A DNA stretch of 64,000 bases from Naegleria gruberi (lineage: Eukaryota): NCBI GenBank assembly GCA_000004985.1, contig GG738902.1. The stretch is one strand, 5' to 3'. Both the position numbers and the translations under genes were made by a program. Below the pieces are notes generated by a model, which made no database searches, was not told the origin of the DNA, and saw only the letters and a list, made by a program, of their open reading frames with translations. Shown piece after piece: positions 5,078 to 46,607 of the stretch; position 1 is the first letter of the stretch, and every line of letters begins with the position of its first letter.

Positions 5078-6553
5078 ATGAAAATTATTGAACAAGAAGA
5101 TATGTTAGAAGAAGAACTTGTTGTAATCCATTTGGATACTTCCATTTTCAGTCCACTCCTCAAATCAACAACAGACAACCAATCCAAATTATTAAAGCAC
5201 TGGTGTATGGAGGCAGATCTATTCAAATATTCCATCATTACACCTCTGGAATATTGTATTGAACAACCAAACCTTAATGGACAGTATTGCAAAATTAGTA
5301 AAGCTCCCTATGTATACTCTAAGAAACTACCATTGGAAGAGGAGGGATCGAAATGGATATGGGGTATGGATTCGATATTTGTACCAGATTATGTTGGTTC
5401 AAAACATGGCTCCTTATTGAGTGTTAAACAATCAACAAATAACGATGAAATAATTTGTGAAAAAGAAACTGAAAGATCAGATGCAACTATTCCAGTTGTT
5501 GTAGAGATGAGAAACAATAGAGAGTTTATGATGGAGAGTGTACAGAAAAATGGTTTATTACTTTATTATGCTCATCCTGATTTACTTTTTGATCAAGAAT
5601 TATTATTGGAAGCCATAAGAAATAATGTATCTGCTTTCCAATATGTTCCATATAATCTCAGAAGAGATGAACAATTCTTAAAAAGAGCTATTGAAAAATG
5701 TGGAGATGTGTTTTTATACCTTACTGGAGAGTGGAGAAAGAGAAATGATTTATACGAAATATCTTTGAGAACATGTGAAAACAAGCTAAAACTATTCGAA
5801 AGATTGGATCCTTCAATTAGAATGAATTATGCACCCAGTATGGTATCAAACTATTGGAGAGCAATCTATTTCCTCAACCCTTCAGACTCTCGATACTCTC
5901 AACTAATCCAGATTATTCTCAATTCGAATCAAGTTTCTGACTCTGAATTAATCAATTCAAATTTAATAACCAACAGGAAAGATTTATGGAAATATCTCGA
6001 TATTTCTTATAGGGCACTTATCTTGGCTAAAAGAGAGTGCATTGATAATGAAGCAATCATTAAGGCATTGAGAAGTAATATGATCATTTCCAACTATCTA
6101 TCGTATTACCAATGGAATGCAATCAAGGAAAATCATTCTCTTATAATGGAAATAATTCAAAATCCAATAGAATTAACAATTGAAGCTGCAACATTTATTA
6201 TTAAAAATTCTAATCGGGATAATGTCAGAGCACTCGTAAAAAGATATCCTTTTCTAGCAGAAAAGGTTACTGAGGTGAAAATGATGTTTGATCCTTATAT
6301 TCTTAGATATTTGCCGTCAAACAAACAATATGAAACTATTCGAAAGTGTGCCAAACTAATAATGGATGAAAAAGAGTATTTCGAAACAGTAGGATATTAT
6401 TTCCAAGGAAGCAGTGCCCTCGCCTGGATTTTAAGAGAAAGATTTACCATATCACATCCTGGCTTGGTCATTCCTTACCATAGATTTGGAAAAAAACTCG
6501 ACTGTCAACCAATTTGTTGGGATTTTGAGTTGTGGTATGAGAGTATCAACTAA
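5078..6553 (+). CDS. DUF4116-repeat protein
   Basis: ATG after an A-run. It carries repeated approx. 35-aa units of the form YAxxxLRxDxEFxLxAIxxNxxAFQYVP, typical of DUF4116 repeats. A paralogous repeat block sits in the gene at 56540..58231. Confidence 0.55.
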   Translation: MKIIEQEDMLEEELVVIHLDTSIFSPLLKSTTDNQSKLLKHWCMEADLFKYSIITPLEYCIEQPNLNGQYCKISKAPYVYSKKLPLEEEGSKWIWGMDSIFVPDYVGSKHGSLLSVKQSTNNDEIICEKETERSDATIPVVVEMRNNREFMMESVQKNGLLLYYAHPDLLFDQELLLEAIRNNVSAFQYVPYNLRRDEQFLKRAIEKCGDVFLYLTGEWRKRNDLYEISLRTCENKLKLFERLDPSIRMNYAPSMVSNYWRAIYFLNPSDSRYSQLIQIILNSNQVSDSELINSNLITNRKDLWKYLDISYRALILAKRECIDNEAIIKALRSNMIISNYLSYYQWNAIKENHSLIMEIIQNPIELTIEAATFIIKNSNRDNVRALVKRYPFLAEKVTEVKMMFDPYILRYLPSNKQYETIRKCAKLIMDEKEYFETVGYYFQGSSALAWILRERFTISHPGLVIPYHRFGKKLDCQPICWDFELWYESIN

Positions 6554-6781: not shown

Positions 6782-9700
6782 TTACAAAAATCCTTTGACT
6801 TCATCATACCCTGGTTGATCAATTTCTTCAGCAAGTTCGCCTGACTTGTATTGTTCATAGTGCTTTGGTGTTAAAAGTCCCATATCTACCAACTGTGTAA
6901 GGAGTGGCTTAATGCTTTCAAACTTATTACGAATAAAACAGGCATATTGACTGATACCCAAAATTGTAATTTCATCTCCATCTTCGAGCTTTTCCTTGAC
7001 TTGATCCTTCAGTAATGCTTGGAATGATTCAACGTTTTGAACTGGATCTTCATGCAATGATGAATTAAGGATACCAGAGATGATTTGTTCGATAGACAAT
7101 AAATTAATGTAATCATCAACTTCTTCCTTTTCGTTAATCTTCTTATTGAAGAAGACAGATGGTTCAAAACATCCATAACAGTTTTCTTCAACCAATTCGC
7201 AGAATTTGGAGTAGTAATCACCATTTGGCTTCAATACGTTCATAATATCCATGACACTATTTACCAAGTGCTTTCCAGCTTCAACCTCACTCAAAACAAG
7301 ATGGTTTTCAAGTTCATCTTCATAGTTAGCAAGAATCTTCTTCAAATCATCATTTAATTCACATTCAGACTTGACAGAAGCAAAAACATTCTTGAGAATA
7401 TCAAATGCGTGTTCTTCTTGCAATGGAGCATCTTCATCCAAAACAACTGTAACCAAAATATCGTACAAACAGTTAAAAGGCAAAACTTTTTCGAAAAGGA
7501 GTCTACCAAAGAGTTTACCAGTATATGGGAACAACTCTGGAATATCAACGTATGTTTCTTCTTGGACAGATGAAAGCAAGTATGAAATCAAGCCATCAAC
7601 GAAAACTGTCTCAGTAACAAGTGGTTCAGCACCTTGAGTCAATCTCTTGCACAACTTGACACAATCGCTGAGTTCAGCATCTCTACTATTTTCACAAGCA
7701 CAGAGGGCAAGAGTCTTAGCAAAGTGGTGTGATTTGAACAAGTTTTCTTTGGTGATAGTTTCAATTGTATCTTCAATCTCTCCTTCTTCAAAGAAGTTAT
7801 TAATAATTCTCTTGGTCTTTTCAGTTGTTTCCTTAATTTGTTCTTCAGTTTCTTCTGGAACAACTTCAACTTCTTCAATAACTTCTTCTTCTTCTTCTTC
7901 ACTGACTGGTTCCTTTTCTTCTTCATCTTCCAAAAGTGAGAAAGAATTCAAATCCTTCTTGCTTTGAGTTGGAGATGGAGCCTTTGTGATCAAGTTACCA
8001 CCACCTGGAGCCAAAGTCTTCTTAGCATCCATCTTTCTGTATCTTTCAGCTTGCAAACCAGATTGCTTATTATTATTATTATTATTATTATTATTGTATA
8101 CAGTCTTAGTCTTGACAGTTGTCTTTCTATTGTGGTGATGCTTTTCAATCTTCTTAATTTGATCCATTTGTTGCTTAACAGCATCATCTCTGGCTTCTTG
8201 TCTAGTCTTGGTAGCCTTTGTCTTTTCAATTCTGGCAACCCAGTTATTAATTCTCATATCAATAACATCTCTAAGCATAAATCTGAGACGAGAGGCAAGG
8301 TTATCCTTATCTTGAGCAAGGGTTTCCATTTTACCAAAGTAATAATTGACATATTTCTTTGACTTTTCATGATCCAATTTGCTACCAATAGTAGTCAATA
8401 AACGACACAAAAGTTCAATATCATCAGAAGATGGATATGGAGTTGGATTAACGAGCAATCTCTTGATAACTTCATGCATAATCTTTTCACTAAGCATATC
8501 TTGCAAATAAAGTTCACCAATGAAAATCATGTTACCAACTTTCTTCTTTCTCAATAAGAATTCCTTTTCTTCAACTTCCTCAGGGCTCAAGCCAACTTGA
8601 GCTGCCTTTTCAAGTTCTTCCTTCTTTTCATTTTCGAATTCTTTTTGACATTTGTTCAATAACAATCTCTTGAATTGTTTAGTATTTTCTTCTCCAATTC
8701 TTTCCTTAAGTTCGTTACTTAAATCAGCACACAACTTGGCATAGAGAGCAGAGAAGTTTTGAAGGTTAATAGCGAAAATGAAAATTTGATCAATAATACC
8801 ATTCAAAACAGCTTCATCACCTGGCTTCTTAATACAAGCATTTAAGAATTCAATCTTAAGTCTTTCATAGTTTTCAGGTGTCAATCTGTTAAGAATAAAT
8901 TTAACTTCATCAACAATGACTTCATCCTCAGGCTTATCCTTTGACAATTTCAAGGCATTTTGAGACTTTGAAAGCTTTTCATAAGAACCTTGCTTTCTAT
9001 TTGTTGCTCCTTTTCCACCACGAGCACCTCCTCTATTATTTTCGAATCCACCACGTCCTCCTCTTGAACTGGCTCCTCCACGAGTGGTACCACCTCTTCC
9101 ACCTTGGCCTCCGCCACGTCCACCACCTCTACCTTGACCACCTTTGTTGAATCCACCAGCCATAGCCATTGATGATGAAGCGCCCTTTGAAATAAGGAAA
9201 ATTTCACCCATACCTTTAAGCTTTTCTGGAGCTTCAGTGCAAACATCTCTGAATTTAAGGAGATAATCTCTAGAGTAAACCTTGCTACTTGGTTCGGTTT
9301 CTCCTTCTTCCTCTTCCTCTTCACTAGAATCTTCCATTCCGTCGATTTCGCTTGGATCTTCCTTGATGACTTTATCTTCATCAATATCTGAAGATTTAGA
9401 ATTATCAAAGGTTTCTTCACCTTCAAGTGTTGTTGGAGTTTCAGTATATTCACTAATTGGTGTTTGTGGTGTTTCCAGTTCAGTTTGTTTTTCTTCAACT
9501 GGTGTAGCTTCCTCAGTTTGTTTTGGAGCTTCCTCAACAATTGGTTCAGTAGTAGCTGTTGTTGTTGCAGTTTCAGTAGTTTCAGTAGTTGTTGATATTG
9601 TTACTGGTGTTGTTGTTGTTGATGTTGTTGTAGCTTCAGTAGTTGAAGCTGTTTCATTTGATGACTTATCATCAAGAATATTAACCTCTTTACCACTCTT

Positions 9701-9924
9701 TGGGTCAGCAATTACAATCTTTGACGATCTTGCTGGTTTAACAATCTCACTAGAAGTTGTACTCTTTGGTTCACTACTAGGATAACCATAAGGTGGATAA
9801 CCAACAGGTGGGATTGGATATCCCATAGCTGGTTGCATCTGTGGATAGAAGATTGGTTGTTGATGTTGTGGATAAGTGTTTTTAACATAAGTCTTGTGTT
9901 CAGGTATTTTGCTGTGGTTATGTT
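6782..9924 (-). CDS. Eukaryotic translation initiation factor 4G (MIF4G, MA3 and W2 domains), main 3' exon
   Basis: It has the eIF4E-binding YxxxxL-phi motif (YSRDYLLKF), an RGG/RGGG box, MIF4G-like and MA3-like helical repeats, and a W2-like acidic C-terminus. A (TTA)n-encoded poly-Asn tract is present. Internal Met at 9838. Minus-strand acceptor (CAG) at 9927..9925, exon beginning at 9924. Confidence 0.8.
8067..8095. repeat. (TTA)n microsatellite inside the eIF4G CDS, encoding poly-Asn on the minus strand
   Basis: About 9.5 perfect TTA units. It translates to NNNNNNNNNN in the eIF4G frame. Confidence 0.9.
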
Positions 9925-30412: not shown

Positions 30413-30949
30413 TTATTCACAATTAGATCTATTTGGACCAGATGAACTTAGAAGTCGTTTCCTCCACAAATTATCCTTAATATTATCGGTCAGGAATTTC
30501 TTCTTTTCCTCATTAATGACATCCAAACTCATTTCCAATAAATAGAAAATCATTGCATCTAATGTACCATCATTATATATCAGAGAAACCAGTTTTTTCA
30601 CTTCCTCACCATGTCCTTCTTTGTAGAGAATGGTACATGCCTCAAAAAAGTTATGAGATTTGCTATTGTCCGACATAAATTTGTGAAATGATTTCATTAC
30701 TGGAATTATATCTTCAATTTCCAAGTCAAGGAGAATTTGAGAGAGTGGTGTGCAAATTTCAGAAACTTTGGACACGAGATGAATTTTCTTGTTGCTGGGA
30801 GATGGAAATTCAGAAATGGAGAGTTTCAATAATTCAAGTTTAAGCTCTGGTAAGATGAGAAAATCTGCCAAATTTGTCAAATCTTTTCTCAAACTATCGT
30901 TGCACTTGTCAAGTTCTTCATTGTGAAAGAATTTTTTCAATTGTTTCAT
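30413..30949 (-). CDS. Hypothetical protein (about 178 aa)
   Basis: The track start at 30991 is GTG. The first ATG, at 30949, follows an A-rich run on the minus strand. No domain recognised. Confidence 0.35.
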   Translation of the reverse strand: MKQLKKFFHNEELDKCNDSLRKDLTNLADFLILPELKLELLKLSISEFPSPSNKKIHLVSKVSEICTPLSQILLDLEIEDIIPVMKSFHKFMSDNSKSHNFFEACTILYKEGHGEEVKKLVSLIYNDGTLDAMIFYLLEMSLDVINEEKKKFLTDNIKDNLWRKRLLSSSGPNRSNCE

Positions 30950-31210
30950 GGATTTGGAGTTAAATCCAGTTCGTAAGTTTGAGTTGGCCACTTGGTAAAA
31001 TAAAAGTGGATTCTTCTAAGAAATTCCCAGAAATGAAAGCTTTCAAAACTGGTCCTTTCAATAATTCCTTTCGAATAAATATTTTGCTAGTGGTTAAAAT
31101 TATGAAGGAATTGGAAGAAACACTTTACAATGAAAATAGCCAATCGAATGTTGGAACGATTTTGCACAGGTTTGAAGGGCAAAATCGTTCTATTTTTAAA
31201 AATAAAAAAA

Positions 31211-32512
31211 ATGCACCAGATTACATTCTCTTCGAGCGTAGAGGACACTGATTGTGGTGACTATGATTCATACTCTGACAACTCCAACAGATCACAAGAC
31301 TATGATTACTACGAAGATTATGAAAGTGATTCATGTGGAGAGATCTACGAAACTAATTTTAAAGATATTGAAGAAATTACTGTCAGTTCCATTTGTCCAA
31401 GATGTAGAAAATCTATTGGTCTTGTTGCTTATTTACAAGATTATTATGAAGAAGGTGAAAGAGAAATGGGTTATGATATGGCCTTTGAATATGATGTTGG
31501 GGGTGGTTGTTGTGATAGTTGTAATAGTGAGGTTGAGCCTGAGGATTCATCATTAACAATCTACTCTTATGTGAGTGGTGGTACATTGCTGGAGGATTGT
31601 GATTTTCCAGAAGTTTCTGTGAAATTAATAGAATATTACATTAGTGATGAAGATGATGAAGATTATGATGAGGATGAAGAAGATGAAGATGATGACACTA
31701 CATTCGATATAGCTCCAGCCATTTGTTTACCTTTTCAAGGAAAAGGAGATTGTGTTGTTGTTAGATACAAGAACTTAACTTTAGGAATTGATACTGGATA
31801 TTCAAAATACTTCACCAACATTCCAAAACAATTCAACTTCTCAAAGTCCAATCATTCTTATTTAATTGTTACACATGCCGATAGTGATCATTCTGCTGCA
31901 GTAGACAAGTTTATAGAAAAAGCCAAACGAACTCCCCACTTGCTGTTCACAGATGCTAGAAAACAAGATTCTTTCAACATAGCAACAGTTCAAGATATTT
32001 CAAAAACAATTGCTTATCATTACAATGACCTAACAGTTACAAGCTATTTGCCACCTGGTAACAATACAAACGATCGCTCCATAATCAACATCATAAACTG
32101 GAGGGGAAAGAAATTGGTTTTTGCTGGAGACCAACAATATTCAACAATACTGAAAGTATTGGCTGCGAAAGGGATTGAAAGTGTATATTTATTCCATATC
32201 CCTCATCATGGTTCTAAGCATAATTGGGACTGTGACGTCTTAATACCAGCCAAAAATTATCTTGTAACTGGCTATCCAACAACCAAATACCCTGAGTTTA
32301 ATAGTGACTCTCATTTCCAAGTTGTGAGAGGTGTTTGTGAGATGTTGTTGCTACATAAGAATTTTGGAGAAGTTATCATTTATTTTACTAACTGTCGTTT
32401 AACTGTTGAGGATTGGTGTCGTATTCAAAATAACGAACGTTACGCTACGGTGAAAAGGTTTGTTCGTATTGTTACAACCAACAACCATCAACAAACTTTC
32501 AGTATTTTGTAA
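31211..32512 (+). CDS. ComEC/Rec2-type metallo-beta-lactamase-fold protein with an acidic Cys-rich N-terminal region
   Basis: LIVTHADSDHSAAVDKF matches the ComEC-type SHxDxDH motif. AGDQQ...LFHIPHHGSKHNW matches the ComEC-type C-terminal HHGS motif. N-terminal CPRCRKS...CCDSCNSE is zinc-ribbon-like. The ATG at 31211 follows an A8 run; the track start at 31130 is also an ATG in the same frame. Confidence 0.6.
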   Translation: MHQITFSSSVEDTDCGDYDSYSDNSNRSQDYDYYEDYESDSCGEIYETNFKDIEEITVSSICPRCRKSIGLVAYLQDYYEEGEREMGYDMAFEYDVGGGCCDSCNSEVEPEDSSLTIYSYVSGGTLLEDCDFPEVSVKLIEYYISDEDDEDYDEDEEDEDDDTTFDIAPAICLPFQGKGDCVVVRYKNLTLGIDTGYSKYFTNIPKQFNFSKSNHSYLIVTHADSDHSAAVDKFIEKAKRTPHLLFTDARKQDSFNIATVQDISKTIAYHYNDLTVTSYLPPGNNTNDRSIINIINWRGKKLVFAGDQQYSTILKVLAAKGIESVYLFHIPHHGSKHNWDCDVLIPAKNYLVTGYPTTKYPEFNSDSHFQVVRGVCEMLLLHKNFGEVIIYFTNCRLTVEDWCRIQNNERYATVKRFVRIVTTNNHQQTFSIL

Positions 32513-32847: not shown

Positions 32848-34049
32848 TTAATGTTGAGTTTGTTGGGTTGGGTTTTCAGTCAATTCTGCCAATTCGTTTT
32901 CAAGTTGAATAACCTTGAGTTCGTGTTGGATAAACATGAATTGTTCATCAATGTTAGCAAATTTGTTTCTTTCTCTGCTATCCAAAACTTTGAGTAAATC
33001 CAATTTGATGAGCTTTGGTGTACTGTCACTCTTAGAGAGGTTTTGAATCTGAGTCATAATTCCATCCATGAGTGTTTTAGTATTTGGTGAGTCAATACTG
33101 CAGCCAACTTCTAAAAGGAATTCACAGACAAGTTTGAGATTCAGCTCTGTAGGATTTTGTAATAAAGAAGAAATAATTAAAAATGCAATCTTTCTATCTA
33201 AAACATGATAAGAAATCAACTTGGCAACAAGTTTCAATGTGTTGGATTTCTTCTGGAAAGATTTAAACTCTTCTTCTAATTCCTTTTCCTTATTTTGAAC
33301 AATGAATTCTTCCTTAAATAATTGCTGACACTTGGTAGCAATCTTCTTCTTGATTGAGACGATCACATCTTGGGGAAGTCTAGATACATTCTCTTCGAGT
33401 TGCTCATAGAATAAACTTGCAATAGTTCCAGCAATGCCTCGATACAAAACCTTCTCTATCAAGATGTCAACCCACAAACTTTGCATATTTTCAGAATTCT
33501 TAAAGAATGAAAAGTTCTTTAACAACTTGTGTCTAGTATTTTCATAAATTTCTGGAGTGAGTCTGGTGGAAGCATAAACCTTGTCATAACTGGATAAGAG
33601 TTTGGACAACAAGATTTTGATAAATTCAATAGTTTCCTGTTCTGTTCTGTGTTTCTTTCTCTCGTTTTGTGGCTTATGTTGCTTGATATTTCTTCTTTCG
33701 TACTTTCTATCATTTTGAAATGTTTCCGATTGACCTTGTTGTGCTGGTTGAGATACTGGTTTGGTTTCACTCTTTCCTGATACTGGTCGTTGATTAGTGT
33801 TAGCAGTACTGTTTGTTGGAGTTGCTGTAGTTGTTGTGGTAGTAACATGTTGTACAGGAGGAGCATTAGTGACACTTGTTGTTGAAGATCCTGTTGTTGG
33901 AGTGTTTTCAGTAATGGTTGTTGTGGCAGGTTTTGAAGATGTTGCACTAGGCTTAATTGGTGAAGTTGTAGATGGTGGTGATTGATGATGATCCTTAAGG
34001 TGAGCAACATTTCTCTTGTGGTGATGCTTGTTGCTTGGATGGCTCTTTT
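32848..34049 (-). CDS. Exon 2 of a helical-repeat (MIF4G-like) protein gene, with a Thr/Ser/Pro-rich linker then a helical C-terminal domain
   Basis: The open frame runs continuously from 34049 to the stop at 32848. It differs from the track ORF 33519..34010, which is the Q/L-rich alternate frame. The C-terminal 250 aa show an amphipathic helical-repeat pattern compatible with a MIF4G-type fold; that domain call is weak. Confidence 0.45.
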
Positions 34050-41217: not shown

Positions 41218-44200
41218 ATGGCCTCATCACCCGAGATTGTGGAGGTTGTTGATTCATCATCTACAATAGATAATTCTGAACAGAAGAGTTCTCTGATACC
41301 ATCTACTGACCATAACTCTTGGCTAACACCAGTTTCTATAAATCAACTTCTTCATAAAGCACAACAAGAAAAGGAAGAAGAAGAAAATAAGGAGGAAAAT
41401 ACAGATCCAAAGAAGAAAAAGAAGAAGATTCGTTGGTATCACACTAAATGTTTTATCTATTTTGCTGCTATTATACTTGCCGCTATTTCAATTTTGACCA
41501 TTATAATTTCATATGTCTTGTTTGTTAGACATAATCACTTGCTTTTTGTTTGTAATTCTGCAGAGTTTATTGTTGTTTCCTTCTTTGAAGTTATTATTTT
41601 GATTTGTGCTGCCATTGTTGCTTTTAAACTTAATGAATGGTACAAACAGCATCACTCAGAAGTTGCTGAATCAGATGAGGATTTAAAGTTGAAATATTCG
41701 GATAACTTGGCCAGAGACAAGTTGATTATGAAATTCCAAAACACAAGTGTAGTCATTTCACTCTGTTTACTTACAATTTTCACATTAATTTATTTAGCCC
41801 TTTTCGTCATCCTTCTTTACGGAATTTCTAAAACAACACCTTCGCTTTCAGGAGTAGAATATTATACACCAATTCAACATGAAACTGTGATAGAAAAGGA
41901 AAAGACAAGTGGTGTTTTTCACATTCACGCCAAGACTGACTATGAGTTATTCTTTGCACAAGGTGTAGTCACAGCAAAGGAGAGACTATTCCAAATGGAA
42001 ATTATGAGAAGAATGGGTCGTGGTACATTGTCTGCTCTGATTGGTGAAGATGCTCTTGAATTGGATAAGTGGAGCAGAACTCTAGGCCTTTTGAGAAATT
42101 CCAAAAATCATCTTCAAGATTTGGATTATCGTGCTAATTTAACTCTTACTGCTTTCTTTGATGGTGTAAATTCCTATTTGAAAACTAATCCTAAAATGCC
42201 ACCAGAATATTGGTTAATATTTAACAAGAAGACAATTCACAAGTTTGAGGTTGTTGATGCTCTCGTATTTTGGAAATTAGCTGCTTTGGATATTTCTACA
42301 AACATTTTTATGGAAAAAGTAAGATTTAATTCTTTAAGAAAGAACAATACTCTTGCTCATACTATGGAATTTTATCCAACCTATCCAAGAAGTTGGCCTG
42401 AACAATTCAAAAAGACTGATTTGAACATTCAAGCTACTCAAGAGGAGATTGATGCTCTTGAAGAAAGATTTACCAACAACTTTGGAGCCTTTATGCCAAA
42501 GAATGAACAAAGTGACAATGATAATAACAATGATGGAGATGGTGATATTGTTCCTGAAGACCCAGAAGATCCAATCGTACAAGAAGGATTCACTAGAAAA
42601 TTGAGAAAGATTAAGAAAAATCATCCGGCCGTCTATAATTCAATTGAATCATTCTTCAATAAGAAATCACACGAATCATACTTTGCTTCCAATGCTTGGG
42701 CAGTCCATGGATCAAAAACAAAGAATGGAAAACCAATATTGGCCAACGATCCACACATGAAATTAACTGCTCCACTTCCGTTCATTATGTTCCACTTGGT
42801 TTCAGAAGAAAGTGGTTTAGATACCATTGGTGCTACCTATCCACTCATTCCTGGTATTGTTATCGGAAGAAACAAGAATAGTTCATGGGCTATTACTTCA
42901 TCAGGATCTGACGTTCAGGATTTATTTGTATTGGATCAAATTAGTGACTCAACCTATGTTGTCAATGGAACAGAACATGACTATGTAACACATCAAGAGG
43001 AAATTCACTTTGATAATACTCAAAGTGTTACCATTCACGTTAAGGATAGCATTTATGGACCTGTTGTTAATACTCTTTTGGGATGGGAAGATATTCAAGA
43101 AGTTGTTGCTTTGAGCTGGACTGGTATTAAGGATAATGATACCAGTTTGAATGCTGTTATTGGAATCATGTACCAAAATAATTGGCCTCAATTCCATGAA
43201 AATATGAGACATTTGGTTTCTCCTCCTATGAATTATATTTATACTGATGCTGAAAATATTTGCTCACTCGTTGCTGGAATGGTTCCAATCAGAAAGTATG
43301 GACATACTGGATTGTTCCCAGTTTCTGGAAATGGTACCTTTGATTATGAAGGTTATGTTCCATATGAAAAGATGCCATATGTATGCAACCCAGAGAGAAA
43401 GTTTGTTGTTGCTGCCAATGCAAGAATTGAACCACCAGGATATCCATATTATCTTGGTGCTGATGTAGGTACAAAGTACAGACTGGAAAGAATCGAGGAT
43501 TTATTAAGTTCAAACAAGACCTTCAATATTACAAATATGGTCGACATTCAATTAGATACCTATTCTAAACTCTTCTTTGATTTGAAGCCATTTATCTCCA
43601 AGTTGAAAAATACTAGTTTAACATTCCAAGAAGAAGTTATCAGAAAAGATTTGGAAAAGTGGGACGGCTATCTTATTCTTGGATCTAAACAAGCAAGTCT
43701 TTTCGAAATGTTCCACACCAAACTTTGGAATATGTCTTATGCTGATTTGGGTGTTGAAAATTCAAATATTATTTACATTAAGAATGCTCTCAACAAAACA
43801 GGACGATGCTCTCCAAATCTTCCAAAGACTTGTATGTCATATGCAGTATCTGCATTCAAACAGTCTATTGCTGATTTGAAGGTACTCTCCAAGAGTACAG
43901 AGATTCCTTCTTGGGGTGTTGGTATTCACTCAACTACATATTTCCATCCAGTTTTCCACTCATATGCATTCTCTTGTGCATGCGACAAACGTCACTATGT
44001 TCCTGGTGGAACAGACACAATCAACTTTTCTCGTGTTACTGAGACCAATTTAGATTCTTCACATGGTGTTGCTTTCAGACAAATAACTTCTATGAGTGAT
44101 GCTGATGGTGATTTATTTATTACTCCTCTTGGGCAAAGTGCTAACTGGTTAGACTATGACTATCACTCTAATTTGCAAATATTTGCTGAGGGAAGATATC

Positions 44201-44268
44201 ACTCACTTAAACGAAAGAATTACAAGGTAACTTCAACACTTACTTTGAAACCTAAGGTCTCCCAATAA
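41218..44268 (+). CDS. Penicillin amidase / N-acyl-homoserine-lactone acylase family (peptidase S45, Ntn-hydrolase) with an N-terminal multi-TM region
   Basis: Alpha-subunit motif FFAQGVVTAKERLFQMEIMRRMGRGTLSAL. Beta-subunit N-terminal nucleophile motif FASNAWAVHGSKTKNGKPILANDPHM. About 4 predicted TM helices in residues 75-210. 1016 aa. Confidence 0.8.
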   Translation: MASSPEIVEVVDSSSTIDNSEQKSSLIPSTDHNSWLTPVSINQLLHKAQQEKEEEENKEENTDPKKKKKKIRWYHTKCFIYFAAIILAAISILTIIISYVLFVRHNHLLFVCNSAEFIVVSFFEVIILICAAIVAFKLNEWYKQHHSEVAESDEDLKLKYSDNLARDKLIMKFQNTSVVISLCLLTIFTLIYLALFVILLYGISKTTPSLSGVEYYTPIQHETVIEKEKTSGVFHIHAKTDYELFFAQGVVTAKERLFQMEIMRRMGRGTLSALIGEDALELDKWSRTLGLLRNSKNHLQDLDYRANLTLTAFFDGVNSYLKTNPKMPPEYWLIFNKKTIHKFEVVDALVFWKLAALDISTNIFMEKVRFNSLRKNNTLAHTMEFYPTYPRSWPEQFKKTDLNIQATQEEIDALEERFTNNFGAFMPKNEQSDNDNNNDGDGDIVPEDPEDPIVQEGFTRKLRKIKKNHPAVYNSIESFFNKKSHESYFASNAWAVHGSKTKNGKPILANDPHMKLTAPLPFIMFHLVSEESGLDTIGATYPLIPGIVIGRNKNSSWAITSSGSDVQDLFVLDQISDSTYVVNGTEHDYVTHQEEIHFDNTQSVTIHVKDSIYGPVVNTLLGWEDIQEVVALSWTGIKDNDTSLNAVIGIMYQNNWPQFHENMRHLVSPPMNYIYTDAENICSLVAGMVPIRKYGHTGLFPVSGNGTFDYEGYVPYEKMPYVCNPERKFVVAANARIEPPGYPYYLGADVGTKYRLERIEDLLSSNKTFNITNMVDIQLDTYSKLFFDLKPFISKLKNTSLTFQEEVIRKDLEKWDGYLILGSKQASLFEMFHTKLWNMSYADLGVENSNIIYIKNALNKTGRCSPNLPKTCMSYAVSAFKQSIADLKVLSKSTEIPSWGVGIHSTTYFHPVFHSYAFSCACDKRHYVPGGTDTINFSRVTETNLDSSHGVAFRQITSMSDADGDLFITPLGQSANWLDYDYHSNLQIFAEGRYHSLKRKNYKVTSTLTLKPKVSQ

Positions 44269-44360
44269 ATCGACTGATTAGTTGTGAATTAATGGTATTG
44301 TTGATTGGTAAACCCAATCAATTTTATTGTAAAAGTTCCACAACAATCAGAATAAAAAAA

Positions 44361-46607
44361 ATGAAGCGAAATCTACTTCGTTCTTCTCATGTGAGAAATA
44401 AGATCAAAACACATGCCAACAAGATTACACTTACCCGTCCAAACATATCACAGAAAATATCTCTCCAATCAGAATCCTACAATTTGTCCCCAAATGTTCG
44501 TTCCATCAGCTCCACGATCACACATGGTAACCCCTTGTTGAAACAGTCAATCAATGTTAATGATATTGGCTCAACTAATACTGCCAACATCAATAGAACA
44601 TTCTCAACTAATATATTGGTCATGCAAAATAATGACACAACCAAGACAGATGCCTTCTCCAATTTGATGGACAATCTCTTTGTGAAAGTTAAACGACACG
44701 ATGTATCTGAGCATGATAGGACATTTGCCAAGTTTTATGATTTGGATAGTGATGAATATGGATATGTGGATCCAAAAACAGATCCAAACAATAGGACTGT
44801 GACTGAGAATGGAGCTACAACCTTCAGCTCATCAGGATCAAATCTTGTTGATTTCTTTTATTTCACAGTGGAGGGAATTTCTCAACAAAAAATTCACAAA
44901 TTGTTGGATGCAAGTTGGAGAGAACAACCATTGAAAACTCTTAAAGTAATCTTCTTCATTAGAGATATTAGAAATGGAAAGGGTGAAAATGAAATCTTTT
45001 ACGAAACTCAAAGATGGCTTGCATTAAATCATCCTCAAACATTCCTTGAAAATCTCAAAAATGTTCCAACATCTGGTTATTGGAAAGATTTACAAAACGT
45101 ATTGCTCTACATTCGATATGGTGGTCATGAGCGAGACGAACGTCCTAATTGGGCTAAGGAAAAAAATGTATTATTGAAACGGTTGCCATCAGAAAAATCA
45201 CTCTATGAGAAAGCCATTTTCCAAAAGAGGCGTTCATATAGACCAATTAAAACAGAAGAAGATAGAAGAATAAGAGAGAAAGATATTGCCAATCAGGTCA
45301 AGCAGTCATTCTCACCAAACGAGTTGTGGAACCAAGAAGTAAGAAATACTGAAAAATTGGTTCTTACAAAGGAGGAAAGTAAGAAGTTGAAATTGGTTTA
45401 TGAGAAGGCTAAGGATATAGTTGTTGATTTGTATGTGGACCAATTATTGAAGGATCGTGAAAACCTTTCTAAGGGAGAAGTAAAATCTCTAACATTATGC
45501 GCTAAATGGGCTCCCACTATTAATCTATCAACTGATAGACAGTTGGGTATTGGTAAACAAATAGCTCAGAAACTTTTCCCATTCGATCAACCTGATGGTA
45601 TTCAACTTACAATTAGAAAAGAAGGAAAGGGAGATAAGAAATACACAGACCAACAAGTTTACAGATATTTGGCAAATATCAAGTATCAAAAGCTGTTGAG
45701 AGATTTGAGAAAGGCAACTGTTACTATTGAAACATTCATGTCATCAAAAGAGTGGTCCAATATTCCATACGAAAGGGTACCTTCTGTTTGTATGAATAAG
45801 AAGAAGAAATTATTTTCCTTAAAAGACAATGAAAGATTTGTATCTTTTTTGGAAAGTGTTAAAAAAGGAGAAAAGAAGATTAATGGAGCTGTTCTATTCC
45901 CTCACCAACTGATTGAACAGTTATATGCCTCACACTCAAAAGAAGTGAGTGATACTATTGAGCTACAATGGAGAGAAATTGTAAAGAATGTAAAAGAGAA
46001 ATCAGACAATGGAATATTCAACTGTATTCCTGTTTGTGATGTGAGTGGAAGTATGAATGGCACACCTTTAAACGTCTGTGTAGCATTAGGTCTATTAATG
46101 TCTGAAATTAATACTGGAATATTTAGAAATAAGATTATTACCTTCTCTGAAAACCCATCCTTTGTCGATTTATCTGGAATTGAAGGTGTTAAAGAGAGGT
46201 TTGATAATCTATGCAAGGCCGATTGGGGAATGTCCACCAATTATATATCCACTTTTAAATTAATATTGGAAATGGCATTGAAAAATAATCTACCAAAGGA
46301 TCAAATGATTAAGAAGGTTGTTGTCTTTTCAGATATGCAATTCAATGAAAGTAGTGCTGATACGACAAGCCATCAAGAAATTGTGGACATGTTCGCTGAA
46401 CATGGTTATGAAGCCCCTGGAATAATTTATTGGAATCTAAGAGGAGATGTCGATAATATTCCAATCACAGTGACAACAGATAATGTTGCTTGCATGTCTG
46501 GATTTAATGCAATTCTATTGAAAATGTTGATGGATATGGACTTGAGCATTGAAGGTCTTGTTGATGCTTCCATTAAAGATTATGATTTTGTAACATTACA
46601 CGACTAG
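44361..46607 (+). CDS. DUF2828-like protein with a C-terminal von Willebrand factor A (vWA) domain
   Basis: N-terminal ENGATTFSSSGSNLVDFFYF...LKVIFFIRDIRNGKGE...GYWKDL pattern typical of DUF2828. C-terminal vWA MIDAS DVSGSM...T...D. ATG at 44361; the track start at 44292 is not ATG. Confidence 0.6.
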   Translation: MKRNLLRSSHVRNKIKTHANKITLTRPNISQKISLQSESYNLSPNVRSISSTITHGNPLLKQSINVNDIGSTNTANINRTFSTNILVMQNNDTTKTDAFSNLMDNLFVKVKRHDVSEHDRTFAKFYDLDSDEYGYVDPKTDPNNRTVTENGATTFSSSGSNLVDFFYFTVEGISQQKIHKLLDASWREQPLKTLKVIFFIRDIRNGKGENEIFYETQRWLALNHPQTFLENLKNVPTSGYWKDLQNVLLYIRYGGHERDERPNWAKEKNVLLKRLPSEKSLYEKAIFQKRRSYRPIKTEEDRRIREKDIANQVKQSFSPNELWNQEVRNTEKLVLTKEESKKLKLVYEKAKDIVVDLYVDQLLKDRENLSKGEVKSLTLCAKWAPTINLSTDRQLGIGKQIAQKLFPFDQPDGIQLTIRKEGKGDKKYTDQQVYRYLANIKYQKLLRDLRKATVTIETFMSSKEWSNIPYERVPSVCMNKKKKLFSLKDNERFVSFLESVKKGEKKINGAVLFPHQLIEQLYASHSKEVSDTIELQWREIVKNVKEKSDNGIFNCIPVCDVSGSMNGTPLNVCVALGLLMSEINTGIFRNKIITFSENPSFVDLSGIEGVKERFDNLCKADWGMSTNYISTFKLILEMALKNNLPKDQMIKKVVVFSDMQFNESSADTTSHQEIVDMFAEHGYEAPGIIYWNLRGDVDNIPITVTTDNVACMSGFNAILLKMLMDMDLSIEGLVDASIKDYDFVTLHD

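What the first reader, a model, noticed from the sequence alone, without database searches (positions are those of the whole stretch)
31211..32512. ComEC/Rec2-type metallo-beta-lactamase domain protein in a eukaryotic nuclear genome
LIVTHADSDHSAAVD (the SHxDxDH motif) and FAGDQQ...HIPHHGSKHNW (the HHGS motif) are the distinctive signatures of the ComEC-type beta-lactamase-like domain of bacterial DNA-uptake channels. That is distinct from the canonical HxHxDH motif.

Here the domain stands alone, behind an acidic region with CxxC pairs (CPRCRKS / CCDSCNS) that looks like a zinc ribbon. There is no intron and a 29-codon ambiguity at the start (31130 vs 31211).

It is a candidate horizontally acquired nuclease or phosphodiesterase.
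Basis: partly seen in the sequence, partly recalled or inferred. Interest (0 to 1): 0.6.

Follow-up and report, generated by a model that had tools for sequence, protein, structure and literature searches.

The report
Zinc-ribbon ComEC-type nuclease in Naegleria
This intact Naegleria gruberi gene encodes a metal-dependent hydrolase, most likely a DNase, whose catalytic domain is the type used by bacterial DNA-uptake channels and anti-phage systems, and it belongs to a tiny undescribed family found only in a few amoebae and other eukaryotes rather than being a recent bacterial import.

Summary
Window 31211..32512 (+) is an intact 433-codon ORF, with an alternative ATG 27 codons upstream (not 29). 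It is identical to a Naegleria gruberi "predicted protein". It carries THADSDH, AGDQ and PHHGS motifs and two CxxC pairs followed by a poly-acidic tract.

The C-terminal 268 residues form a metallo-beta-lactamase fold of the ComEC/Pce clade:
- Every ComEC residue named as catalytic or substrate-binding in the literature I read has an identical counterpart.
- The motif spacing is ComEC-like. It lacks the autoinhibitory insertions of the bacterial defence pro-nucleases (Avs1a/HamM type).

It is not a ComEC, because it has no channel domain and no OB fold.

The interpretation as a horizontally acquired gene is only partly supported:
- The closest relatives (about 15 in roughly 15 billion proteins) are all eukaryotic or on eukaryote-like contigs: Flabellula, Polysphondylium, Dictyostelium, a bdelloid rotifer assembly and environmental contigs.
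- They share the C4 zinc-ribbon plus MBL architecture.
- No prokaryotic or viral sequence is close.
- Codon usage is native.

Best reading: a stand-alone binuclear-metal phosphodiesterase, most likely a DNase, from an undescribed, patchily distributed eukaryotic family of ultimately bacterial ancestry. Its biological role is unknown.

The parts
31211..32512 (+). Coding sequence, 433 codons plus stop (the database gene model). An in-frame ATG at 31130 would add 27 basic/hydrophobic residues.
   Evidence: ORF list. 100% match to the N. gruberi predicted protein of 433 aa. ATG 31211 is preceded by an A-run. Relatives have acidic/Ser-rich N-termini like the 433-aa form.
31130..31210 (+). Optional 27-codon N-terminal extension (MKIANRMLERFCTGLKGKIVLFLKIKK). 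It is unresolved whether it is translated.
   Evidence: Sequence. It is not part of the database model and has no counterpart in relatives.
31394..31522 (+). C4 zinc-ribbon-like module, C62-x2-C65 ... C101-x2-C104
   Evidence: The four Cys are invariant and the span is 36-43 residues in nine modules from seven family members. There is no Pfam hit. The only PDB sequence matches are generic zinc-knuckle matches. The AF2 model is of low confidence here but predicts beta-strands at 55-61, 68-76 and 93-96, around the first knuckle and just before the second.
31643..31696 (+). Poly-acidic linker (18 residues, 16 D/E) immediately upstream of the catalytic domain
   Evidence: Sequence. The N-terminal 167 residues have net charge -45 and pI 4.05, against +8 and pI 9.1 for the MBL domain. 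The 45 residues before the domain are net negative in 7 of 9 family members.
31706..32509 (+). ComEC-type metallo-beta-lactamase fold domain (residues 166-433)
31739..31753 (+). Motif I, GKGDC (D180)
   Evidence: Aligned with GQGDA of 9ic4. K178, G179 and D180 are invariant in alignment A1 of 7 full-length members.
31871..31891 (+). Motif II, T-H222-A-D224-S-D226-H227 (HxDxDH)
   Evidence: Aligned with H598-x-D600-x-D602-H603 of the Moorella glycerini ComEC nuclease domain (residue roles from PMC12455585).
32069..32080 (+). Motif III, N287-D-R-S290
   Evidence: Aligned with NNNS of 9ic4. N and S are present in at least 90% of 150 homologues.
32123..32137 (+). Motif IV, A-G-D307-Q-Q (family signature GDQ)
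   Evidence: D is invariant in 150 homologues. D142 and Q143 (D307 and Q308 in the 433-aa numbering) are invariant in the 13-sequence family alignment, while the preceding G is conserved in at least 90% (P0123 has TEDQ).
32201..32215 (+). Motif V, P-H332-H333-G-S335
   Evidence: Aligned with H725-H-G-S728 of 9ic4. The S728A variant of ComEC has reduced nuclease activity, and H725 is placed next to the substrate and metals in the proposed catalytic model (PMC12455585).

Best explanation
This is a genuine, intact nuclear gene of Naegleria gruberi. It encodes a soluble three-part protein:
- a C4 zinc-ribbon-like module;
- a strongly acidic linker;
- a compact metallo-beta-lactamase-fold domain of the ComEC/Pce clade with a complete binuclear-metal site (D180; H222, D224, D226, H227; N287; D307; H332).

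By analogy with the ComEC nuclease domain, two divalent cations (Mn2+ or Zn2+) would hold a bridging hydroxide, generated with D226 as general base, which attacks a phosphodiester. The most likely substrate is DNA. The zinc ribbon would supply the substrate- or partner-binding function that the OB fold supplies in ComEC. The acidic linker may mask the basic catalytic domain.

The protein belongs to a very small, so far undescribed family confined to scattered eukaryotes (Heterolobosea, Amoebozoa, a bdelloid rotifer assembly and unidentified eukaryotic contigs). The catalytic domain of this family is of ultimately bacterial type. In Naegleria the gene is compositionally native and is not a recent acquisition.

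Shown: the gene, the fold class, conservation of the catalytic residues, the family and its taxonomic distribution, the absence of ComEC channel parts and of defence-type insertions. Inferred: metal dependence, DNA as substrate, and the roles of the zinc ribbon and the acidic linker.
For: - Identity and context.
- MBL-clade assignment by sequence.
- Residue-by-residue equivalence with the ComEC residues named in the literature.
- Motif II to motif V spacing is 110 residues in Naegleria. The medians are 116 in ComEC, 122 in compact stand-alone bacterial homologues and 206 in Avs1a-like proteins.
- Family membership and shared architecture.
- An NJ tree of 150 sequences recovers the family as a clade (52% bootstrap). 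With two metazoan-like sequences as sister the support is 83%.
- The dictyostelid members have introns and ordinary neighbours. The Flabellula member comes from a transcriptome.
- Native GC3 and codon usage.
- Charge split between the N-terminal region and the domain.
Against: - No enzymatic, expression or localisation data exist for this protein.
- Pce, a phosphorylcholine esterase, is as close structurally as ComEC, so the substrate is not fixed by fold.
- Two conserved non-ligand residues of ComEC are not kept in this family: the Lys three residues before HHGS is His/Gln, and the C-terminal GHP histidine is missing. Substrate binding must therefore differ.
- The AF2 model was built from an alignment dominated by ComEC/Avs1a-type sequences and leans towards that fold variant.
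- The N-terminal half is modelled at pLDDT below 50.
- The NJ phylogeny at 20-30% identity is weak. Profile-profile scores to ComEC, compact stand-alone and Avs1a-like groups are indistinguishable (E 5e-25, 1e-27, 4e-26), so the sister group is unresolved.
Confidence: 0.6

Rival explanations
1. Recent horizontal acquisition of a bacterial (or viral) ComEC-type hydrolase gene by Naegleria gruberi.
For: The domain type is otherwise overwhelmingly bacterial. No other Naegleria protein was identified among the top hits whose sources were looked up or among the motif-flagged family members. The gene has no intron.
Against: The best non-self hits are eukaryotic proteins with the same zinc-ribbon fusion. 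The nearest bacterial sequences are 37% identical or less, and only over short stretches. Scans of prokaryotic genomes, viral contigs and metagenomes found no close relative. GC3 is 0.278 against a window mean of 0.280, and CAI is within the range of neighbouring genes. The flanking genes are eukaryotic. From general knowledge, intronless genes are common in N. gruberi.
Confidence: 0.07
2. The enzyme is a phosphodiesterase or esterase for a substrate that is not a nucleic acid (for example a phosphorylcholine ester as in Pce, a cyclic or linear nucleotide signal, or a phospholipid head group), and is not a DNase.
Against: Motif II is HxDxDH as in ComEC and the defence nucleases, whereas Pce has His at the second position. 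The characterised HxDxDH members described in the papers I read are DNases (ComEC, HamM). The catalytic domain is basic, pI 9.1. It is fused to a zinc ribbon, a module commonly used for nucleic-acid binding (general knowledge).
Confidence: 0.2
3. It is a latent immune or cell-death effector: a pro-nuclease held inactive by its own acidic N-terminal region and released by proteolysis or by a zinc-ribbon-mediated signal. This would be the eukaryotic counterpart of the bacterial protease-activated MBL nucleases (HamM/Avs1a).
For: The best single-model matches are defence-system MBLs (LmuA-type 1.1e-15, DRT-associated 6.6e-11, Avs1a 4e-13). An extreme acidic tract lies directly before a basic nuclease domain, and acidic linkers recur in the family. 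The family is patchy and fast-evolving, as is typical of conflict genes. In bacteria this clade works as protease-activated pro-nucleases (PMC12799240).
Against: The two autoinhibitory insertions that define the bacterial pro-nucleases are absent (spacing 110 against about 206). There is no linked protease or sensor gene. All defence-model scores are far below their curated cut-offs (48.9 against 420 bits). The acidic linker is not conserved in sequence and is absent in some members. There are no infection or expression data.
Confidence: 0.12
4. It is a decaying or catalytically dead relic, or an annotation or assembly artefact with no function.
For: It is an orphan-like 'predicted protein' with no Pfam hit above threshold in most relatives. 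CAI is at the low end of the window's genes (0.643 against 0.706 +/- 0.040).
Against: The 433-codon ORF is uninterrupted. Every metal ligand and the Ser of HHGS are conserved, as are the family-specific invariant residues, at 21-28% overall identity, which indicates purifying selection. The fold prediction is confident. A relative is present in a transcriptome.
Confidence: 0.03

Closest known systems
Beta-lactamase-like nuclease domain of ComEC/Rec2 (e.g. Moorella glycerini BLACT, PDB 9ic4; B. subtilis ComEC residues 512-776)
   Different: There is no OB fold and no membrane channel (PF03772) domain. TIGR00361 scores 14.8 bits against a cut-off of 190. Identity is only about 14%. The C-terminal GHP motif and the Lys before HHGS are missing. 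The domain is fused to a C4 zinc ribbon and an acidic linker. The protein is eukaryotic and soluble.
Defence-associated MBL pro-nucleases of bacteria (Avs1a of AVAST type 1, HamM of Hachiman, LmuA-type and DRT-associated MBLs, 6A-MBL)
   Same: They are stand-alone cytoplasmic proteins of the same MBL clade. They give the highest single-model scores (PADLOC LmuA 1.1e-15; NCBIfam Avs1a 4e-13). They share the HxDxDH and HHGS motifs.
   Different: The two autoinhibitory insertions that carry the protease cut sites are absent (motif spacing 110 against about 206). There is no partner trypsin-like protease. Scores are far below the equivalog cut-offs (48.9 against 420). The bacterial homologues flagged in the motif scan have no N-terminal CxxC pairs.
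Pce/CbpE teichoic-acid phosphorylcholine esterase of Streptococcus pneumoniae (PDB 1wra, 2bib)
   Different: Pce keeps His at the second position of motif II, where this protein and ComEC have Asp. Pce is secreted and carries choline-binding repeats, and its substrate is not a nucleic acid.
Canonical eukaryotic MBL-fold nucleases (CPSF73, INTS11, SNM1/Artemis, ELAC1/2)
   Same: They share the superfamily fold and binuclear-metal phosphodiesterase chemistry.

Membership tests
ComEC/Rec2 DNA-uptake channel protein (TIGR00361) | Whole-protein score at or above the curated cut-off (190 bits) | tested here: not met
   14.8 bits, E 0.0059, covering only model positions 494-613 of 663.
ComEC/Rec2 DNA-uptake channel protein (TIGR00361) | Polytopic 'Competence' membrane domain (PF03772) and N-terminal OB fold (DUF4131, PF13567) | tested here: not met
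   Pfam finds only Lactamase_B. Genuine ComEC hits carry PF13567 + PF03772 + PF00753.
ComEC-type beta-lactamase-like nuclease domain (ComEC/Pce clade of the MBL superfamily) | Motif II in the form HxDxDH (Asp at the second position) | tested here: met
   H222-A-D224-S-D226-H227 aligns with H598-x-D600-x-D602-H603.
ComEC-type beta-lactamase-like nuclease domain (ComEC/Pce clade of the MBL superfamily) | The remaining metal-site and substrate residues: GxGD, N..S, GD, HHGS | tested here: met
   D180, N287/S290, D307, H332/H333/S335.
ComEC-type beta-lactamase-like nuclease domain (ComEC/Pce clade of the MBL superfamily) | Closest solved structures are ComEC and Pce rather than other MBL clades | tested here: met
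ComEC-type beta-lactamase-like nuclease domain (ComEC/Pce clade of the MBL superfamily) | Conserved non-ligand residues of ComEC (Lys before HHGS; C-terminal GHP His) | tested here: not met
   FHIPHHGS (family: FQIPHHGS), and VTGYP/VSGTP with no GHP.
ComEC-type beta-lactamase-like nuclease domain (ComEC/Pce clade of the MBL superfamily) | Mn2+-dependent 5'-3' exo- and endonuclease activity on DNA | not testable with these tools
   This needs biochemistry. The property is known for the Moorella domains.
Avs1a / HamM-type protease-activated MBL pro-nucleases | Equivalog score (NF041809 cut-off 420 bits) | tested here: not met
   48.9 bits.
Avs1a / HamM-type protease-activated MBL pro-nucleases | Two disordered autoinhibitory insertions relative to the ComEC nuclease | tested here: not met
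   HxDxDH to HHG spacing is 110 residues, against a median of 206 in 32 Avs1a-like hits. The domain model has no segment with pLDDT below 50.
Avs1a / HamM-type protease-activated MBL pro-nucleases | [quoted passage not shown] | tested here: not met
   The neighbours are an unannotated 192-aa ORF, a TLDc gene and an MIF4G gene.
Pfam Lactamase_B (PF00753) | Score at or above the gathering threshold (22.7 bits) | tested here: met
   22.7 bits, exactly at threshold, residues 205-265 of the 460-aa form. Most relatives fall below it.
New eukaryotic zinc-ribbon-MBL family (defined here) | N-terminal C4 module, KGD[CS], SHxDxDH, TGDQ, FQIPHHGS and VSGTP signatures | tested here: met
   All are present in Naegleria, with minor substitutions (T for S, A for T, H for Q, TGYP for SGTP).
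beta-CASP nucleases (CPSF73/SNM1) | HxHxDH plus a beta-CASP insertion | tested here: not met

The most novel reading that the evidence does not exclude
The zinc-ribbon-MBL proteins are a eukaryotic innate-immunity or programmed-DNA-destruction effector family descended from the same nuclease stock as the bacterial ComEC and Hachiman/AVAST/Lamassu MBL nucleases. In this reading the acidic N-terminal region acts as an intramolecular DNA-mimic lock on a constitutively competent DNase. The zinc ribbon senses a trigger, for example giant-virus or intracellular-bacterial infection in phagotrophic amoebae. The patchy distribution reflects eukaryote-to-eukaryote spread and loss under conflict.
Probability: 0.12. 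Interest if true: 0.75.

Novelty: new variant of a known kind. Interest (0 to 1): 0.45.

Why it matters
In the material I could search, ComEC-type MBL nucleases appear only as parts of bacterial DNA-uptake channels and, since 2025, as protease-activated effectors of several anti-phage systems. I found no paper describing eukaryotic members.

A conserved, intact eukaryotic family exists with its own fusion partner, a C4 zinc ribbon. It is found in bacterivorous amoebae, slime moulds and a bdelloid rotifer assembly. This would add a new branch to a nuclease clade of current interest. It would also give an experimentally tractable entry point, through the Dictyostelium or Polysphondylium orthologues, into whether this bacterial nuclease module was re-used in eukaryotic conflict or DNA turnover.

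The case also shows that "bacterial-looking domain in a protist" is not the same as "recent HGT". If the protein is simply a housekeeping phosphodiesterase, the finding is a modest annotation gain for about 15 "hypothetical proteins".

Tried and rejected
- The word-indexed homology search with the whole protein found only the protein itself. Profile versions returned few family members and otherwise ComEC or Avs1a-like bacteria.
- phmmer against PDB with the whole protein gave only spurious acidic-tract matches to glyoxalase I.
- AF2 of the full-length protein with a 7-sequence alignment was poor (pLDDT 51.5; N-terminal half below 50), so the zinc-ribbon fold is not structurally confirmed.
- The afdb50 fold library was unavailable.
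- The BFVD viral fold search gave only generic phage MBLs and no giant-virus relative of note.
- The viral-contig, metagenome-contig and prokaryotic-genome pattern scans returned only distant insertion-bearing or ComEC-type bacterial or phage proteins (L003-L008, L014-L021).
- A profile of the zinc-ribbon module hit only generic CxxC knuckles of C2H2 fingers and the RAD50 hook.
- Profile-profile comparison could not tell which bacterial subgroup is the sister.
- A first NJ/bootstrap script timed out and was rewritten.
- tblastn of the protein against the window found no paralogue.
- The idea that the gene sits in a transposon or viral insertion was rejected. The intergenic spacers are about 140-340 bp and the flanks are ordinary genes.
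- Burroughs & Aravind 2020 (PMC7685563) could not be read.
Full report
**1. The observation**

The window has about 33% G+C throughout. The ORF list shows an uninterrupted reading frame at 31130..32512 on the + strand, 460 aa from the first ATG. From the second ATG at 31211 it encodes 433 aa. That sequence is 100% identical to a protein deposited as "predicted protein [Naegleria gruberi]" on a 305,921-bp contig.

- CPRC at residues 62-65
- CCDSC at 100-104
- an 18-residue run with 16 Asp/Glu at 145-162
- THADSDH at 221-227
- AGDQQ at 305-309
- PHHGS at 331-335

The distance between the two candidate starts is 81 nt, which is 27 codons, not 29.

The neighbouring genes are eukaryotic in type: an NAD-dependent epimerase, a TLDc-domain gene and an MIF4G-domain gene. 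Further out lie an M16 peptidase and a second MIF4G gene. The gene is therefore embedded in the nuclear contig and is not a contaminant. There is no paralogue in the window.

**2. What the C-terminal domain is**

Library searches give the following.
- Pfam detects only Lactamase_B, exactly at its gathering score (22.7 bits).
- NCBIfam gives Avs1a (E 4e-13), the AHM B3-like lactamase model (4.9e-10) and ComEC_Rec2 (0.0059). All are far below their curated cut-offs.
- PADLOC gives the LmuA-type MBL (1.1e-15), the DRT-associated MBL (6.6e-11), PDC-M48B and Avs1a.

An exhaustive phmmer search of 1.84 billion representatives with residues 190-460 of the ORF found only 202 proteins at E <= 1e-3 and five at E <= 1e-10. 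Of 127 of the top hits, 120 match the Avs1a model, 115 match ComEC_Rec2 and 96 match the 6A-MBL model. This places the protein in the ComEC/defence-nuclease clade of the MBL superfamily.

With a 150-sequence alignment of the hits, AlphaFold2 gave a confident model of the domain (pLDDT 89.4).
- Foldseek also ranks 9ic4 first.
- A profile built from the hits matches ComEC chains at E 1e-54 to 1e-57.

That criterion is not met.

**3. The catalytic site**

I added the 9ic4 sequence to the alignment. The Naegleria residues align as follows:

| Naegleria | ComEC (9ic4) |
|---|---|
| H222 | H598 |
| D224 | D600 |
| D226 | D602 |
| H227 | H603 |
| H332 | H725 |
| S335 | S728 |
| GKGDC | GQGDA |
| NDRS | NNNS |
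| AGD | SAD |

In the ComEC domain:
- H598-x-D600-x-D602-H603 is the variant of the HxHxDH motif.
- D602 is the proposed general base.
- The enzyme binds two Mn2+ ions and degrades DNA endo- and 5'-exonucleolytically.
- The S728A variant has reduced activity.

These points come from PMC12455585.

An earlier modelling study noted that the Asp at the second position distinguishes ComEC from Pce, which has His87. It also noted that the histidine corresponding to the GHP motif lies outside the metal centre (PMC5031224).

The Naegleria protein therefore has a full complement of metal ligands. It differs from ComEC at two conserved non-ligand positions: the Lys three residues before HHGS is His (Gln in relatives), and there is no GHP motif. 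Substrate contacts must therefore differ in part.

**4. What it is not**

It is not a ComEC. There is no competence (channel) domain and no OB fold. Genuine ComEC hits carry PF13567 + PF03772 + PF00753.

It is also not an Avs1a/HamM-type pro-nuclease. According to PMC12799240, those enzymes are ComEC-like nucleases that acquired two disordered autoinhibitory insertions. A co-encoded trypsin-like protease cleaves these insertions. The distance from HxDxDH to HHG compares as follows:

| Group | HxDxDH to HHG spacing (residues) |
|---|---|
| Naegleria | 110 |
| Its relatives | 110-143 |
| 15 ComEC domains (median) | 116 |
| 48 compact stand-alone bacterial homologues (median) | 122 |
| 32 Avs1a-like proteins (median) | 206 |

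The domain model has no disordered segment. No protease gene is adjacent.

**5. The relatives: a small eukaryotic family**

The best non-self hits (E 1.8e-16 to 3.8e-10) are not bacterial. They are:
- a Flabellula baltica transcript (EukProt);
- KAF2070248 of Polysphondylium violaceum;
- KAN0041093 of Dictyostelium citrinum;
- several metagenome proteins.

A motif scan (KGD[CS], GDQ, PHH[GA]S) over the 150 best hits flagged further members. These include two proteins from a Didymodactylos carnosus (bdelloid rotifer) assembly.

About 15 sequences share these signatures:
- KGD[CS]
- DxGxxK
- SHxDxDH
- N..S
- TGDQ
- FQIPHHGS
- Y(I/L)VSGTP

Where the N-terminus is complete, they also share one or two copies of a module CxxC-(32-39 residues)-CxxC. 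In nine such modules from seven proteins the four cysteines are invariant, and the span from first to last cysteine is 36-43 residues. However, Pfam and PDB sequence searches recognise nothing more than generic knuckles, and the AF2 model of this half is unreliable.

The genomic contexts are eukaryotic:
- The dictyostelid genes contain an intron and lie among housekeeping genes: homogentisate dioxygenase, pirin and FKBP in one case, an RCC1-repeat gene in the other.
- One metagenome member is the only long ORF in a 10-kb contig.
- Another lies near a ubiquitin gene.

A neighbour-joining tree on 276 columns and 150 sequences recovers the 13 family sequences as a clade (52% of 200 bootstraps). 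Two further proteins, P0081 and P0124, are sister in 83% of the replicates. One of these two sits on an 831-kb contig among PDZ-domain exons and so is probably metazoan.

Profile-profile comparison of the family against the three bacterial subgroups gives indistinguishable scores, so the bacterial sister group is unresolved:

| Bacterial subgroup | E-value |
|---|---|
| ComEC C-terminal domains | 5e-25 |
| Compact stand-alone homologues | 1e-27 |
| Avs1a-like proteins | 4e-26 |

**6. Horizontal transfer**

- Scans of IMG/VR viral contigs, JGI metagenome contigs and one genome per prokaryotic species with the family's most conserved peptides returned only distant proteins. These were 20-32% identical over long stretches and were insertion-bearing or ComEC-type.
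- The viral structure library gave no close giant-virus match.
- The gene's GC3 is 0.278. The other 25 long ORFs of the window have a mean of 0.280 with SD 0.033.
- Its codon adaptation index is 0.643 against 0.706 +/- 0.040. This is low but within the range of its neighbours.

The evidence thus argues against a recent bacterial or viral import into Naegleria. The domain is of bacterial type and absent from most eukaryotes, so an ancient transfer into some eukaryote remains the most economical history. It would have been followed by fusion to the zinc ribbon and then by differential loss or eukaryote-to-eukaryote spread. This history is inferred, not shown.

**7. How it most likely works**

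Shown:
- a soluble protein with an intact ComEC-type binuclear metal site;
- a basic catalytic domain (pI 9.1, net charge +8);
- an extremely acidic N-terminal region (net charge -45, pI 4.05) that contains a C4 module.

Inferred:
- Two divalent cations activate a bridging hydroxide, with D226 as base, and this attacks a phosphodiester.
- DNA is the most likely substrate, because the characterised HxDxDH members described in the papers I read (ComEC, HamM) are DNases.
- In ComEC the isolated nuclease domain binds DNA very weakly and depends on the OB fold for substrate delivery. The zinc ribbon is the obvious candidate for that role here.
- The poly-acidic linker directly before the domain could mask the basic groove. 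The 45 residues before the domain are net negative in 7 of 9 relatives. This is speculation.

The biological role is open. It could be DNA turnover, defence against viruses or intracellular bacteria, or cell death.

**8. Start codon**

The database model starts at 31211, which is preceded by a run of A. Relatives begin with acidic or Ser-rich sequences like the 433-aa form. The 27-residue extension from 31130 is basic and hydrophobic and has no counterpart in relatives. I favour 31211, but this needs transcript 5'-end data.

**9. Novelty and verdict**

The protein itself is already in the databases as a hypothetical protein, and one relative carries an automatic "metallo-beta-lactamase domain-containing" name. 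I found no paper describing ComEC-type MBL domains in eukaryotes or this zinc-ribbon fusion.

I classify it as a new variant of a known kind: a new eukaryotic family and domain architecture within the ComEC/defence-nuclease clade. Interest is moderate at 0.45. The recognition of the fold is solid and the family is new.

Noticed in passing
window 41218..44268 (+): A 1016-aa ORF matches Pfam Penicil_amidase (PF01804) at E 8e-154 over nearly the whole model. As far as I know this Ntn-hydrolase family is mainly bacterial, so it is another possible old transfer in the same Naegleria contig.
   Followed up: no
window 44292..46607 (+): A 771-aa ORF carries DUF2828 + DUF7788 (E 2e-85 and 6e-57), directly downstream of the penicillin-amidase-like gene.
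   Followed up: no
window 6782..9838 (-) and 32848..33612 (-): There are two separate MIF4G-domain genes in one window. The second is the immediate downstream neighbour of the MBL gene and is followed by a Gln/His-rich low-complexity ORF at 33519..34010.
   Followed up: no
window 30413..30991 (-): The divergently oriented upstream neighbour (192 aa) has no Pfam match. Only about 140-220 bp separate it from the MBL gene, so the two may share a promoter region.
   Followed up: no
L009 10001..11341 (P0124) and P0081: Two 446-466-aa proteins are sister to the family. One is on an 831-kb contig among PDZ-domain exons. They keep the ComEC-like HP motif, have intermediate motif spacing (163-165) and carry an extra C-terminal region of roughly 200 aa with no significant Pfam match. 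They may be a second, metazoan lineage of eukaryotic ComEC-type MBLs.
   Followed up: partly
L012 about 5480..5800: A long (TAT)n-type microsatellite lies just upstream of the Dictyostelium citrinum family gene. A short ORF fragment with a CxxC (CSQCRFNTC) follows it, which suggests that the 274-aa gene model misses an N-terminal zinc-ribbon exon.
   Followed up: partly
L001 1..10353: This metagenome contig (38.6% G+C) carries the two-zinc-ribbon family member P0011 as its only long ORF in 10 kb. It also has a simple Arg/Asp-repeat ORF at its end. The same gene and neighbours recur in a second sample (L002).
   Followed up: partly
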